From NCBI GenBank assembly GCA_040437565.1, contig JBDOQK010000035.1:310001-374000 (forward strand): DNA of 64,000 nucleotides. Reading direction: 5' to 3'. Of this stretch, positions 50,901-53,584 are shown piece after piece (position 1 is the first letter of the stretch; each line of letters begins with the position of its first letter). Source of the DNA: Albugo candida (lineage: Eukaryota). Below the pieces are notes generated by a model. That model was given only the letters and a program-made list of their open reading frames with translations. It searched no databases and had not been told where the DNA came from. The translations under genes and the position numbers were made by a program.

Positions 50901-51924
50901 GTGGTCCCCAAGTTAGCGAATCCCGACAAACGACCATAGCCTGGATGCTGAGATCTCTTCAGTTAGGATATCCGCCATCATCATTCGTGATTCGATGTAC
51001 AAAGGATTGCCGATATACGTTTGGCGAAGTCGCGAATTAACTCCACTGTTATGTCCACGTTTTTTGATTTTGTGATACTTTCCTCAGACTCCAGATGAAT
51101 AGTCATCTATCATCATAGTCATCGTCTTCCATGTCACAAACTCCTATCTCTTAAACGCGATCACGTTGTCCCAAGATCTCCTGACCGACGTGAGTCGCTG
51201 AAGTAAATACGGCATACATGGTGGAACGGGATACGCCATTCTGTACCATGCAGATCATCTCACCGGTCATTGCAACAGCTCCAGCGGTCACCTTATTACG
51301 GTTGAAATTATCTTTCTGAATCTCAAGCAATAGCTTACCTGCATCTGTAGCGCTTAGTTGCATGTGCAGATTCAAATCCATTGTACCCTTCGGATAGCTT
51401 GCAGGCTTGTTCGCTACTTTCGAGTCGTATATAGAGCAGGATACTGGGTCCGTTGAGTCGCCCTCTACGGCGAAACTGGTTCCGGTCACGTAGTGCGCAC
51501 GAACAAAAGTAAACGCCCACCAATGGGGCCCGCCCTAGCTCAGTTAAGGGTGTTCGCCCGTAGTACTTTTATTTAGACACCTTTATGTTACTACAGTTTG
51601 GTGGTTATCTACTCTGTTCTAAGCACTAGTATGTAACGCTCTGAAGAGCCCGGTCCAACTCCTGTATAGATCTTTCTGGTGTAGTTGCCAGCGGTCTTGA
51701 CACGTCCATATCTTCATTGAGTAGGTTGATATTTACGTGGAGGAATCTTTGCCTCCGCCGAGGGGCCCCATCNNNNNNNNNNNNNNNNNNNNNNNNNNNN
51801 NNNNNNNNNNNNNNNNNNNNNNNNNNNNNNNNNNNNNNNNNNNNNNNNNNNNNNNNNNNNNNNNNNNNNNNNATTTACGTGGAGGAATCTTTGCCTCCGC
51901 CGAGGGGCCCCATCGCAGCCCTTT

Positions 51925-51999
51925 TGCCACCGCCGGGATTCGAACCGGGGTACACACGGTCGGAACACATGTGTACTAACCGCTAGGCCGCCCGACGGG
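51925..51999 (-). ncRNA. tRNA-derived Pol III head (pseudo-tRNA, not a canonical tRNA)
   Basis: A-box-like GGCCTAGCGG (51980-51989) and B box GGTTCGAATCC (51936-51946). The anticodon arm is replaced by a 9-bp stem GTACACATG/CGTGTGTAC; the acceptor stem is imperfect. Confidence 0.6.
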
Positions 52000-52092
52000 G
52001 TCCGCCCCAGCTCAGTCGCTTAAGCACTTGAGCGCACGGACCCCCTGCCGGAGGTCGTGAGTTCGATCCCCGGCAGTGTGGGCAGCGTTTTT
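51997..52092 (+). ncRNA. Second tRNA-derived Pol III head followed by a T5 terminator-like run
   Basis: AGCTCAGTCG...GAGCG D-arm remnant and GGTCGTGAGTTCGATCC B box (52053-52069). Perfect stems GGGGTCCG/CGGACCCC and CTGCCGG/CCGGCAG. TTTTT at 52088-52092. Confidence 0.6.
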
Positions 52093-53584
52093 AGCCCACC
52101 CAAGCAATAAGCTTGGATAATATCTGCCTCCCTAGGTTTGAAGTCAGACTTAAGTGATATTCACACGGTCAGAGGCTCATGATAGGATAAGGAAGGAAGT
52201 TAAAGAACCAGATTAACAGTTTAATGAAATCCTTGACAAAGTAAACGCCCACCAAGCGACTGAAAATAGCGACCACTTGACTCCCCTATGGTACTTTGTT
52301 CTACGGAAACTTGGTATCATCCAAATCAACTTCATTTCTATCCTCGTGAATCACGTTCACTTCAGTCAACCCATGCTGATCCAGGATTTACTCAATATTC
52401 AACTGCTTATCAAGGGTGTAGCCAGCCATCTCCGTTGTAAATTCAGCGCCCATTACCCAACATTTCTTACTTCACCGAGGTCCTGAATTAAGGGTGTATT
52501 CCTTTGGGGTTGAAACAATTCCACTAGCTTGGTACAGATGCCATAACAGGGAGATCATCGGCGTGAGCCCGCACGACGATCATTCTACACCCGACCGATT
52601 GTAGTACAAACACATGACCATGTCACAGGGTCCTAGATATCCATGTTGTAGCTGACTCCGCAATTATCCCTTCTGCTGAAGTCCGTATAGTGACTTCTTT
52701 ACCACAAGGAAATTTGTTTCCGCGTAACCGCAATTAATCTTCACATGTCTTCAGCGAGAGCCTCCATACCTTGCAGTATACGCAGGTAAATCTAGACGCT
52801 CTTTCTTGACGTCCTTTCGTAGGTTTTTAGGATCTTCCGGTGCCTCGACAGCACGACCCATGTCATTGTGAGCACCGGTACCGCTTTTACATTACTGAGG
52901 TCCATAGCAGTAGCAAATTTGAGTCCATGATAGACCAGACTCGTTGCATGTGGAAATGAGCAACTCTTTGTAATCATTTACACTTTTGACTTTCGCTGCG
53001 GTAATGAAACTTGGTACCGTGAAGGTGATATTGGTACTCTCTCATCGATGGAACGTGACGCCACGTCGTGGTGACGTACCAAATCCACATGTCAGGGCTG
53101 AAATAGAAAAAGAGATTGACATATACATGAAAGTGCGAAGCGGAATGCAAGTCAGTCAAGATATCTTAAAGCAAGATAGAGTTAACCATACGAACGAGCT
53201 TGCTCTATTGTTGAAGAAGTCACTTTTTAGCCNNNNNNNNNNNNNNNNNNNNNNNNNNNNNNNNNNNNNNNNNNNNNNNNNNNNNNNNNNNNNNNNNNNN
53301 NNNNNNNNNNNNNNNNNNNNNNNNNNNNNNNNCGTAGGTTTTTAGGATCTTCCGGTGCCTCGACAGCACGACCCATGTCATTGTGAGCACCGGTACCGCT
53401 TTTACATTACTGAGGTCCATAGCAGTAGCAAATTTGAGTCCATGATAGACCAGACTCGTTGCATGTGGAAATGAGCAACTCTTTGTAATCATTTACACTT
53501 TTGACTTTCGCTGCGGTAATGAAACTTGGTACCGTGAAGGTGATATTGGTACTCTCTCATCGATGGAACGTGACGCCACGTCGT

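What the first reader, a model, noticed from the sequence alone, without database searches (positions are those of the whole stretch)
51524..52238. Two-headed tRNA-derived mobile element with back-to-back Pol III promoters and a 17-18 bp target duplication
Seen: a ~573-bp insert interrupts a Copia RT motif and is flanked by AAAGTAAACGCCCACCAA. Inside, two different tRNA-derived heads share the GGGG at 51997-52000 and point in opposite directions, each with A/B-box motifs. There is no ORF and no poly(A) or simple-repeat tail, and the termini read TG...CA. Known: ordinary SINEs have one 5' head or head-to-tail dimers, long TSDs indicate target-primed insertion, and LTR elements make 4-6 bp TSDs. 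Inference: one unit was mobilised whose promoters are internal and divergent, which fits neither a standard SINE nor a solo LTR and may be an undescribed element class.
Basis: partly seen in the sequence, partly recalled or inferred. Interest (0 to 1): 0.8.

Follow-up and report, generated by a model that had tools for sequence, protein, structure and literature searches.

The report
Composite tRNA-like SINE in Albugo
The insert is a non-coding retroposon made of two joined SINE-type repeats that landed once inside a dead Copia element of a white-rust oomycete; this is a fairly ordinary kind of mobile DNA, with one inverted tRNA-like piece as a curiosity.

Summary
The observation largely holds. 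Collapsing an assembly gap gives a 572-bp non-coding insert. A perfect 18-bp duplication flanks it, and it splits a decayed Copia pol gene on the minus strand.

It is not a new element class. Contigs from four public runs show three things:
- The right 241-247 bp (R, from 51997) is a high-copy SINE in its own right. It has its own 5' and 3' ends and unrelated flanks at dozens of loci.
- The left 331 bp (LM) is a rarer repeat whose first 20 bases match R's head at 18 of 20 positions, on the same strand.
- The order L-M-R recurs in at least two other single-copy contigs.

The "second head" (M, minus strand) is a tRNA-Arg(CCG)-like cloverleaf. Only a relaxed ARAGORN threshold finds it. It sits between the two plus-strand heads and overlaps R's start by 3 nt.

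Best reading (0.45): a dimeric SINE of an Albugo species, copied as one plus-strand RNA that ends in R's tail and inserted by a LINE enzyme. M rides along as a passenger. Rivals are a template-switch chimera, a twin-priming chimera, and nested insertions. Nothing tested here shows divergent transcription. Verdict: a new member of a known kind, of modest interest.

The parts
51506..51523 (.). Left copy of the 18-bp target-site duplication
   Evidence: The exact 18-mer occurs only here and at 52238-52255. In runs X1 and X11 this copy differs by one substitution plus a 1-base deletion at 51513/51514 (tables 3 and 4), so other strains carry the same, older insertion.
51524..51772 (+). L: left module (249 bp). 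It begins with a head-like stretch (51525-51544) that matches R's head at 18 of 20 positions, has an A-box-like motif at 51536-51546, and a T4 run at 51567-51570.
   Evidence: Other copies begin at 51524/5 with unrelated upstream flanks (loose ends before 51537 in 9 contigs of X2 and 7 of X11; X3 records 24 and 25 start or stop exactly at 51524).
51773..51914 (.). Assembly artefact: a 100-N gap plus a 42-bp repeat of the bases before the gap. It is not part of the element.
   Evidence: 7 of the 10 gaps in the window show the same duplicated ends.
51915..51996 (+). M region: the 3' end of the LM module as read on the plus strand (82 bp). It is contiguous with L in other copies.
   Evidence: joints 51772->51923, 51736->51906 and 51747->51930, each in contigs of single-copy depth in X1.
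51925..51999 (-). tRNA-Arg(CCG)-like cloverleaf (75 nt) on the minus strand, with a perfect B-box match at 51936-51946. Its first 3 nt overlap R's initial GGG.
   Evidence: ARAGORN at -ps95 to -ps80. Not found at the default threshold or by Rfam. B box. Fold z -1.9.
51997..52243 (+). R: a complete copy of a high-copy SINE family. Structured head at 51997-52084, A-box-like motif at 52008-52018, B-box-like motif at 52060-52070. The T5 at 52088-52092 is private to this copy. The 3' end reads ...CCTTGACAA(AGTA) and runs 2-6 nt into the right duplication copy.
   Evidence: 5' loose ends at 51997 (7, 9, 10, 9 contigs in X1, X2, X3, X11) and 52006 (20, 20, 25, 31). 3' loose ends at 52239 (8, 6, 8, 8), 52240 (6, shown for X1 only) and 52243 (14, 18, 13, 16). 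The loose letters beyond these ends agree only 0.39-0.57, so the flanks are unrelated. T>G at 52088 and 52092 in at least 98% of depth in all 4 runs. Fold z -4.5.
52238..52255 (.). Right copy of the 18-bp target-site duplication
   Evidence: Contigs with no differences from the window cross this junction in 4 of 4 runs (records 7, 14, 22, 30).
51151..51523 (-). Decayed Copia pol, the part downstream of the insertion (RNase H side)
   Evidence: tblastn against the window's other Copia ORF 54403-54633: E 7e-9 at 51163-51252. No Pfam hit.
52256..52828 (-). Decayed Copia pol, the part upstream of the insertion (RT side, with several stop codons)
   Evidence: E 7e-4 to the RVT_2-bearing ORF region 53489-54301. 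No Pfam hit when stops are read as X.

Best explanation
The insert is one copy of a composite (dimeric) SINE of an Albugo species.

Structure:
- The 3' unit, R (about 241-247 bp, plus strand), is a complete member of a very abundant SINE family. It has a structured head bearing Pol III box-like motifs.
- The 5' unit, LM (331 bp), starts with a shorter homologue of the same head on the same strand. It ends in an antisense tRNA-Arg-like sequence (M) that abuts R's first base.

Mechanism:
- One plus-strand RNA ran from L's first base to R's 3' end. It came from a master copy in which LM lies upstream of R, that is, a dimeric master or a 5'-extended transcript of an R source gene.
- A LINE enzyme reverse-transcribed this RNA at a staggered nick in a Copia pol gene. 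That left one 18-bp target duplication.
- The duplication starts with AAAGTA, which is also how R copies end elsewhere. This fits priming by microhomology at R's 3' end.
- M is a passenger and not a working second promoter.

This particular copy is probably dead, because it carries a private T5 just behind R's head.

Shown here:
- The duplication.
- R's independence as a family.
- Recurrence of L-M and M-R junctions at other loci.
- The homology between the L and R heads.

Inferred:
- An RNA intermediate.
- Which strand was copied.
- Involvement of a LINE.
- Pol III transcription.
For: - One perfect 18-bp duplication flanks the whole insert. No sub-unit has a duplication of 7 bp or more.
- The Copia flanks are continuous across the empty site.
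- R is an independent high-copy unit. Its ends at 51997 and 52239-52243 are shared by 27-40 (5' side) and 24-28 (3' side) contigs per run, with unrelated flanks (table 7).
- Contigs carrying the family's majority letters number 39-83 in R, against 6-20 in L and 7-19 in M (table 3).
- The composite's right end coincides with R's family end.
- L's first 20 nt match R's first 20 nt at 18 of 20, on the same strand and at the very terminus.
- The L-to-M junction occurs in 3 other single-copy-depth contigs of X1. M-to-R continuity occurs in X1 record 4 (51874-52185, 40 mismatches and 4 gaps), X11 records 11 and 12, and X2 record 17. X1 record 2 (2052 bp) holds L, M and R parts in order (tables 5 and 8).
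- In X1, 665-697 of the 729-788 depth units in M continue past the junction into a GGGG head (table 3).
- The window copy differs from the family majority at a similar rate in each part: 6 substitutions plus 1 indel in the 249 bp of L, 1-2 in the 82 bp of M, and 9 in the 241 bp of R (table 3).
- The host is an Albugo. A 2026 RepeatMasker table for A. candida lists 673 L1-type LINEs and 274 unstudied SINEs (PMC13585763, passages read).
Against: - The plus strand has T4 runs 44 nt into L and at the L/M border. No variants are reported there among other copies. If T4 stops Pol III in Albugo, a Pol III transcript from L's head could not reach R.
- The minus strand has no T4 at all over 572 nt. It also carries the best tRNA-like fold and the only perfect B box. 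That would suit LM being a minus-strand SINE.
- In X1 and X11 the summed depth falls from L's left end towards M, which is the pattern expected if the left end were a 3' end. The tool warns that contig depth cannot rank parts, and X2 and X3 show no such trend.
- No partner LINE tail was found in the window.
- Only 24 of 497 loose-end rows and 32 of about 2800 pieces were shown. "LM is nearly always followed by a head" therefore rests on partial output.
- No contig spans the whole insert at this locus, so extra LM units hidden in the gap cannot be excluded.
Confidence: 0.45

Rival explanations
1. A chimera made in a single event by template switching. The LINE reverse transcriptase copied an R RNA to its 5' end, then jumped to the 3' end of a separate plus-strand LM RNA and copied that too. 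The product is LM-R with one duplication. The other LM-R and LM-LM junctions would be independent jumps between abundant RNAs and not descendants of a dimeric master.
For: - The junction lies exactly at R's first base, and both units are full length.
- There is a possible 3-nt GGG overlap at the junction.
- M is followed by either an R-type or an L-type head in different contigs (joints 52001->51537 and 52007->51536, and records 4, 11, 12, 17).
- Chimeric retrocopies made by LINE template jumps are described in mammals and in the fungus Magnaporthe (PMC2104539 and PMC4476161; search listing and abstracts only).
Against: - It needs a free plus-strand LM RNA with its own 3' end. No well-supported LM 3' end with random flanks appears among the loose ends shown.
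- It has the same T4 problem on the plus strand as the main model.
- The other composites are about 13% diverged from this copy (record 4). That fits an old family as well as it fits repeated jumps.
Confidence: 0.2
2. A head-to-head chimera made by twin priming with two RNAs. R (plus strand) was primed at the bottom-strand nick. A minus-strand SINE RNA, with the tRNA-Arg-like head M and a body equal to antisense L, was primed at the top-strand nick 18 bp away. The two full-length cDNAs met and were joined at a GGG/CCC microhomology.
For: - M is the best tRNA-like piece. It has a perfect B box and no T4 downstream on the minus strand.
- M's cloverleaf overlaps R's start by 3 nt.
- A single outer duplication is what twin priming leaves. 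5'-inverted retrocopies are a recognised class for L1 (PMC2912911, abstract only).
- Summed depth in X1 and X11 falls from the left end towards M (weak evidence).
Against: - It does not explain why LM's outer terminus is homologous to R's 5' head in the plus orientation.
- It needs a second mechanism for the M-to-L-head junctions.
- The top-strand primer end (...CCAA) and the minus-strand RNA end show no complementarity.
- No two-RNA twin-priming product came up in the one search made.
Confidence: 0.12
3. Chance nesting. Two or three separate insertions (R, then LM, or the reverse) happen to abut, and the 18-bp repeat belongs to only one of them.
For: R is very abundant, and SINE-SINE juxtapositions are common in these genomes. 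Examples are an R-R tandem with a 16-nt spacer, and tail-to-tail and partial R-R joints (table 5).
Against: - No second duplication of 7 bp or more lies at any internal boundary.
- The outer repeat brackets both units exactly.
- The same L-M-R order and junctions recur in other contigs.
Confidence: 0.08
4. One reading: a new class of mobile unit whose two internal Pol III promoters fire in opposite directions from a shared GGGG, both being needed for its life cycle.
For: - Back-to-back box motifs on opposite strands.
- The 3-nt overlap of the two heads.
- Recurrence of the M|head junction at other loci.
Against: - R alone, without M, is the far more successful replicator.
- A third, plus-strand head at the left end makes the unit a head-to-tail dimer.
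- A minus-strand transcript from M would not contain R or R's tail.
- The tRNA signals are below threshold.
Confidence: 0.05
5. Assembly artefact: the middle of the insert was stitched together from other repeat copies across the scaffold gap.
For: - The locus contains a gap, and the assembly duplicates contig ends at 7 of 10 gaps.
- No listed public contig spans the insert. Contigs break 41-45 bp into the left end (records 1, 8, 23).
Against: - Both flank junctions are confirmed in independent runs: the left in 3 of 4 runs listed, the right in 4 of 4.
- The 42-bp overlap is exact.
- The same internal junctions exist in other contigs.
- At worst the true insert is longer (extra LM units), not absent.
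Confidence: 0.03

Closest known systems
tRNA-related SINEs of oomycetes (the infSINE families of Phytophthora infestans, Whisson et al. 2005). The paper was not read here. It appears in the reference list of PMC11540230, and infSINEm is described in PMC3429519 (passages read). The details given below are recalled.
   Same: - Short and non-coding.
- 5' head with Pol III box-like motifs.
- Dispersed copies and short flanking direct repeats.
- No poly(A) tail.
- As recalled, two infSINE families were described as multimers of tRNA-related units, one of them built from two unrelated units.
   Different: - A different genus (Albugo).
- The 18-bp duplication is longer than the 6-14 bp I recall for infSINEs.
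- One tRNA-like unit is inverted.
Dimeric SINEs whose monomers also exist free (primate Alu with its free left and right monomers; a dimeric SINE in the shrew mole, PMC13023118, listing and abstract only)
   Same: - Two SINE-type modules move as one unit with one duplication.
- The 3' monomer also exists alone and supplies the tail that the LINE uses.
   Different: - The heads here are tRNA-like and not 7SL-derived.
- The free monomer R is commoner than the dimer.
- The linker is an antisense tRNA-like sequence and not an A-rich stretch.
Chimeric retrocopies made by LINE template jumps (U6-L1 in mammals; the MINE/WEIRD chimeras of Magnaporthe, PMC2104539, abstract only)
   Same: - Two unrelated RNA copies are fused exactly at the 5' end of the 3' partner.
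- A single target duplication flanks the fusion.
   Different: - Here both partners are SINE-type repeats.
- The arrangement recurs at several loci with about 13% divergence. That points to a family more than to one-off events.
SINE-like tandem clusters bearing tRNA genes in Peronospora effusa (PMC11540230, passages read)
   Same: - An oomycete host.
- tRNA-like pieces inside repeats of 284-1070 bp.
- Often annotated as tRNA.
   Different: - Those clusters sit at single chromosomal sites and are thought to be immobile.
- The Albugo units are dispersed, with unrelated flanks and a target duplication.
Solo LTR
   Same: The termini read TG...CA.
   Different: - The duplication is 18 bp, not 4-6 bp.
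- The three segments have very different numbers of contigs and their own internal ends.

Membership tests
tRNA-derived SINE (LINE-dependent retroposon) | Short (under about 700 bp) and without coding capacity | tested here: met
   572 bp after collapsing the gap. The only ORFs of 60 aa or more run through the N gap.
tRNA-derived SINE (LINE-dependent retroposon) | 5' head recognisably derived from a tRNA, with A and B boxes | tested here: inconclusive
   Box-like motifs with 0-2 mismatches to the recalled consensus. The tRNA models fail for R and L. Only M, on the minus strand, passes a relaxed ARAGORN threshold.
tRNA-derived SINE (LINE-dependent retroposon) | Many dispersed copies with the same ends and unrelated flanks | tested here: met
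   Met for R: 27-40 contigs per run at the 5' end and 24-28 at the 3' end, with loose-letter agreement of 0.39-0.57. Met for L's left end: 7-9 contigs.
tRNA-derived SINE (LINE-dependent retroposon) | Target-site duplication of variable length, typically 5-20 bp | tested here: met
   18 bp at this locus. Duplications of other copies could not be read from the output.
tRNA-derived SINE (LINE-dependent retroposon) | 3' tail shared with a partner LINE, or an A-rich or simple-repeat tail | tested here: inconclusive
   R ends ...GACAA(A)(GTA), with slightly variable ends. No match of the tail to the LINE fragment or to anything else in the window. No genome is held in which to search for a partner.
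tRNA-derived SINE (LINE-dependent retroposon) | Transcribed by RNA polymerase III | not testable with these tools
   No run listed as holding the stretch is on record as RNA. That is no evidence either way.
Dimeric / composite SINE | Two SINE-type modules bracketed by one duplication | tested here: met
Dimeric / composite SINE | The same composite recurs at other loci (a family, not a one-off) | tested here: met
   At least two other contigs in X1 with L-M-R parts (records 2 and 4), plus further L-M and M-R junction contigs in X2, X3 and X11. Their outer ends and duplications were not seen.
Dimeric / composite SINE | All modules lie in the orientation of the transcript | tested here: not met
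   The L and R heads are both on the plus strand, but the tRNA-like M is on the minus strand. The polarity of LM is unresolved.
Solo LTR of an LTR retrotransposon | 4-6 bp duplication and one uniform repeat unit | tested here: not met
   18-bp duplication. Internal family ends at 51997 and unequal contig numbers across the parts.
MITE / DNA transposon | Terminal inverted repeats and a 2-10 bp duplication | tested here: not met
   The ends TGGGGCCC... and ...CCTTGAC(A) are not inverted repeats. The duplication is 18 bp.

The most novel reading that the evidence does not exclude
The M|head junction is a functional bidirectional Pol III unit. A tRNA-Arg-like promoter fires leftwards through antisense L, and the R head fires rightwards. 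The composite then makes two RNAs, or double-stranded RNA when it pairs with plus-strand L transcripts. This two-way architecture is itself what is propagated, which would make it a SINE type with divergent internal promoters.
Probability: 0.06. Interest if true: 0.6.

Novelty: new member of a known kind. Interest (0 to 1): 0.3.

Why it matters
SINEs of the white-rust genus Albugo are uncharacterised in the literature I could search:
- The two founding Albugo genome papers never use the word SINE.
- A search for Albugo + SINE + transposable returned 11 papers, of which 8 were listed, and none of the 8 is about Albugo SINEs.
- A 2026 paper gives only a RepeatMasker count.
- A 2024 downy-mildew paper states that SINEs have not been characterised in oomycete assemblies.

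The data here define one abundant family (R) and a rarer composite built on it. Both could serve as markers of race history and as sources of Pol III promoters for this obligate biotroph. The composite would also be a tidy natural case for asking how SINE dimers arise, whether from a dimeric master, a template jump or twin priming. It does not open a new class of element.

Tried and rejected
- Own genome: none is held.
- Other copies in the window: none for L, M or R with blastn at word sizes 9 and 7. Only chance matches of 15 bp or less at E 3 or better; the longest of all was 21 bp at E 13-46.
- Public collections: exact-pattern scans for an M core (27 nt) and an R core (25 nt) gave 0 hits in metagenome contigs. 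The R core also gave 0 hits in viral and prokaryote contigs. Those collections probably hold no Albugo DNA.
- RNA evidence: no RNA holder is listed among the 24 runs. This says nothing on expression.
- Empty-site allele: no joint skipping 51523->52256 is among the 15 joints shown, and 9 more joints were not shown. The four runs laid all carry the insertion. X3 matches the window with no differences and may be its source sample.
- Pfam on the flanks: no family for 51151-51534, nor for 52256-52828 with stops read as X. Two earlier Pfam calls failed on stop codons and were re-sent with other coordinates.
- Solo LTR and MITE readings were rejected on duplication length, lack of inverted termini and internal family ends.
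- Rfam's only match is DUF805b at 51606-51642 (E 0.36, 15 bits against a gathering score of 35.6). I take it as chance.
- Depth gradients as a polarity test were considered and given little weight, because contig depth is one figure per contig (tool warning).
- A protein-database search with a peptide translated across the M|R junction was considered. It was not run, because it could not give flanks or duplications.
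Full report
**What is in the sequence**

Between the two copies lies a 100-N scaffold gap (51773-51872). The 42 bases before the gap are repeated exactly after it. This is a habit of the assembly: 7 of the 10 gaps in the window are flanked by duplicated ends of 1685, 1046, 415, 407, 182, 42 and 36 bp, six of them exact and the 182-bp pair 99.5% identical. 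Collapsing the overlap is therefore justified, and it gives a 572-bp insert.

I split the insert into three parts:
- L: 51524-51772, 249 bp.
- M: 51915-51996, 82 bp.
- R: 51997-52237, 241 bp.

The insert has no poly(A) tail, and no open frame other than ones that run through the N gap. No other copy of L, M or R lies in the 64-kb window.

**The flanks**

The flanks are a badly decayed Copia-type pol on the minus strand.
- Pfam sees nothing in either flank.
- The right flank aligns to the KKSLYGLKQ-type motif of an RVT_2-positive Copia ORF further along the window (E 7e-4; RVT_2 E 3.4e-9).
- The left flank aligns to that Copia's downstream ORF (E 7e-9).
- The two anchors are spaced as in an uninterrupted pol once the insert and one duplication copy are removed.

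So the repeat behaves as a true target-site duplication of one insertion.

**The host**

The window carries long intron-poor ORFs (Nramp, kinase, Myb, PHD). The Nramp ORF is 86% identical to the Albugo laibachii Nc14 protein, and at most 66% identical to any other protein listed, named oomycetes included. The host is therefore an Albugo other than that strain. It is probably A. candida, but that name was not tested.

**The tRNA-like pieces**

- Default ARAGORN finds no tRNA in the region or in the whole window.
- Rfam finds no tRNA at E up to 10.
- ARAGORN at 95% of its threshold calls 51925-51999 on the minus strand a tRNA-Arg(CCG)-like cloverleaf.
- That piece holds the only perfect match to the B-box consensus, at 51936-51946 (consensus recalled).
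- R's head (51997-52084) has A- and B-box-like motifs with 2 and 1 mismatches.
- R's head folds into two strong hairpins (z -4.5, 0 of 200 shuffles fold as well). M folds with z -1.9.
51525-51544 matches R's first 20 nt at 18 of 20 positions on the same strand. The shared pattern occurs twice in the window and 0 times in 100 shuffles.

**Other copies**

No genome is held for this window. Scans of the metagenome, viral and prokaryote collections found nothing.

The one informative source was public run contigs. 20 of the 24 listed runs hold part of R, and the best holder has 0.55 of the sampled words. I laid the contigs of X1, X2 and X3 (organism A) and X11 (organism B) on 51350-52400 at 80% likeness. 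528-881 contigs were laid per run. Only 32 of about 2800 pieces, 24 of 497 loose-end rows and 15 of 24 joints were printed.

Flanks and junctions at this locus:
- The flanks have single-copy depth, about 53 in X1.
- Contigs cross the left junction in X1, X3 and X11, and the right junction in all four runs. All four runs therefore carry the insertion.
- X3 shows no differences from the window and may be its source sample.
- X1 and X11 differ inside the left duplication copy at 51513/51514, so they are other strains.

R is a family of its own:
- Similarity begins at 51997 in 7, 9, 10 and 9 contigs (X1, X2, X3, X11).
- It begins at 52006 in 20, 20, 25 and 31 contigs. The clipped letters there end in GGGGTCCGTA, so these copies have the same start with two mismatches.
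- Similarity ends at 52239 in 8, 6, 8 and 8 contigs, at 52240 in 6 contigs (shown for X1 only), and at 52243 in 14, 18, 13 and 16 contigs.
- The letters beyond these ends agree only 0.39-0.57, so the flanks are unrelated.

Relative abundance of the parts:
- Contigs carrying the family's majority letter number 39-83 across R, 6-20 across L and 7-19 across M.
- L and M are therefore about equally common, and R is several times commoner.

L's own start:
- Other L copies begin at 51524/5 with unrelated flanks (9 contigs in X2, 7 in X11).
- X3 records 24 and 25 stop exactly at 51524.

Recurrence of the composite:
- L is joined to M in three other single-copy-depth contigs of X1 (joints 51772->51923, 51736->51906, 51747->51930).
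- M runs straight into R in X1 record 4 (51874-52185, 40 mismatches and 4 gaps), X11 records 11 and 12, and X2 record 17.
- X1 record 2 (2052 bp) holds L, M and R parts in order, inside an unrelated flank.
- Two contigs have M followed by an L-type head instead (joints 52001->51537 and 52007->51536).
- In X1, 665-697 of the 729-788 depth units in M carry on past the junction. The share is lower in X2 and X3 (about 20-36%).

State of the window copy:
- It differs from the family majority at 6 sites plus 1 indel in L, 1-2 sites in M and 9 sites in R.
- Two of the R sites create a T5 at 52088-52092 that at least 98% of the other copies' depth lacks.

**What it most likely is**

R is an ordinary, abundant SINE of this Albugo. 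The insert is a composite in which a rarer module, LM, sits directly upstream of a full R. The composite exists at several loci.

At this locus it arrived in one event:
- One perfect 18-bp duplication brackets both units.
- No internal boundary has a duplication of 7 bp or more.
- The composite's right end is R's family end.
- The duplication begins AAAGTA, and many R copies elsewhere extend through those same letters (the 52243 group). That fits priming of reverse transcription by microhomology at a nick before AAAG. This step is inference.
- L1-type LINEs are reported for A. candida: 673 copies in a RepeatMasker table that also lists 274 unstudied SINEs (PMC13585763, passages read).

I therefore favour a plus-strand RNA running from L's head to R's tail. 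It would be made from a dimeric master or from a 5'-extended R source gene, and inserted by a LINE enzyme. On this reading M is a passenger.

**What argues against this, and the rivals**

- The plus strand has T4 runs 44 nt into L and at the L/M border. The minus strand has none in 572 nt. By chance I would expect only about two on the minus strand (my own estimate), so this is weak evidence.
- M is the best tRNA-like piece, and it points the other way.
- These points keep a twin-priming rival alive. In it, a minus-strand SINE (M head, antisense-L body) and a plus-strand R were each primed from one of the two staggered nicks and joined head to head at GGG.
  - It explains the overlap.
  - It does not explain the homology of L's outer end to R's head.
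  - It does not explain the M-to-L-head junctions.
- A template-switch chimera, with both RNAs in the same orientation, is the other serious rival.
- No transcription data exist here. No run listed as holding the stretch is on record as RNA, which is no evidence either way.

**Comparison with what is known**

- Composite and dimeric SINEs, and LINE-made chimeric retrocopies, are established kinds. For these I saw only listings and abstracts: PMC13023118, and PMC2104539, PMC4476161 and PMC2912911.
- The tRNA-related SINEs of Phytophthora infestans, including multimeric ones, were described in 2005. I recall that paper but did not read it. It is cited in PMC11540230, and infSINEm is discussed in PMC3429519 (passages read).
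- For Albugo I found no description of SINEs:
  - The two genome papers have 0 occurrences of the word SINE.
  - A three-term search (Albugo, SINE, transposable) found 11 papers, of which 8 were listed, and none of the 8 is on the subject.
  - Supplementary repeat tables of those papers were not opened and could hold unnamed consensus sequences of these repeats.

**Verdict**

The claim that one unit was mobilised is supported. The claim of a new element class is not. This is a new member of a known kind, a composite tRNA-like SINE built on an abundant monomer. The inverted tRNA-like linker is a modest oddity, and the polarity of LM is an open point.

Noticed in passing
window gaps at 13464, 26898, 31546, 42731, 49376, 51773, 53233: 7 of the 10 100-N gaps are flanked by duplicated sequence of 36 to 1685 bp (six pairs exact, one 99.5% identical). 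The assembly kept overlapping contig ends on both sides of its gaps. Apparent tandem gene duplicates, such as the two 431-aa Myb ORFs at 11894-13189 and 13679-14974, are probably artefacts.
   Followed up: partly
window 55580-56050, minus strand: ORFs there look by eye like a LINE-type reverse transcriptase. This was not tested against Pfam. It is a possible relative of the SINE's partner, but no similarity to R's or LM's tail was found.
   Followed up: partly
window 53489-55051, plus strand: A second, better-preserved Copia pol (RVT_2, E 3.4e-9), of a different lineage from the one that received the insert. Its 5' part is duplicated across the gap at 53233.
   Followed up: partly
window 8700-35000: A gene-dense block of long intron-poor ORFs (PHD finger, Myb, Nramp, armadillo-repeat protein, protein kinase). 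It contrasts with the repeat-rich, stop-ridden right third of the window, where the SINE sits.
   Followed up: partly
window 51513-51514: In runs X1 and X11 the left duplication copy differs from the window by one substitution and a 1-base deletion, while X3 is identical to the window. This is strain variation inside the duplication, and a handy marker for the age of the insertion.
   Followed up: no
public contigs laid on 51997-52243: R copies often sit next to each other. Arrangements seen are a tandem with a 16-nt spacer (in X1, X2 and X3), tail-to-tail pairs, and partial R-R joins. This suggests clustered insertion or insertion into earlier copies.
   Followed up: no
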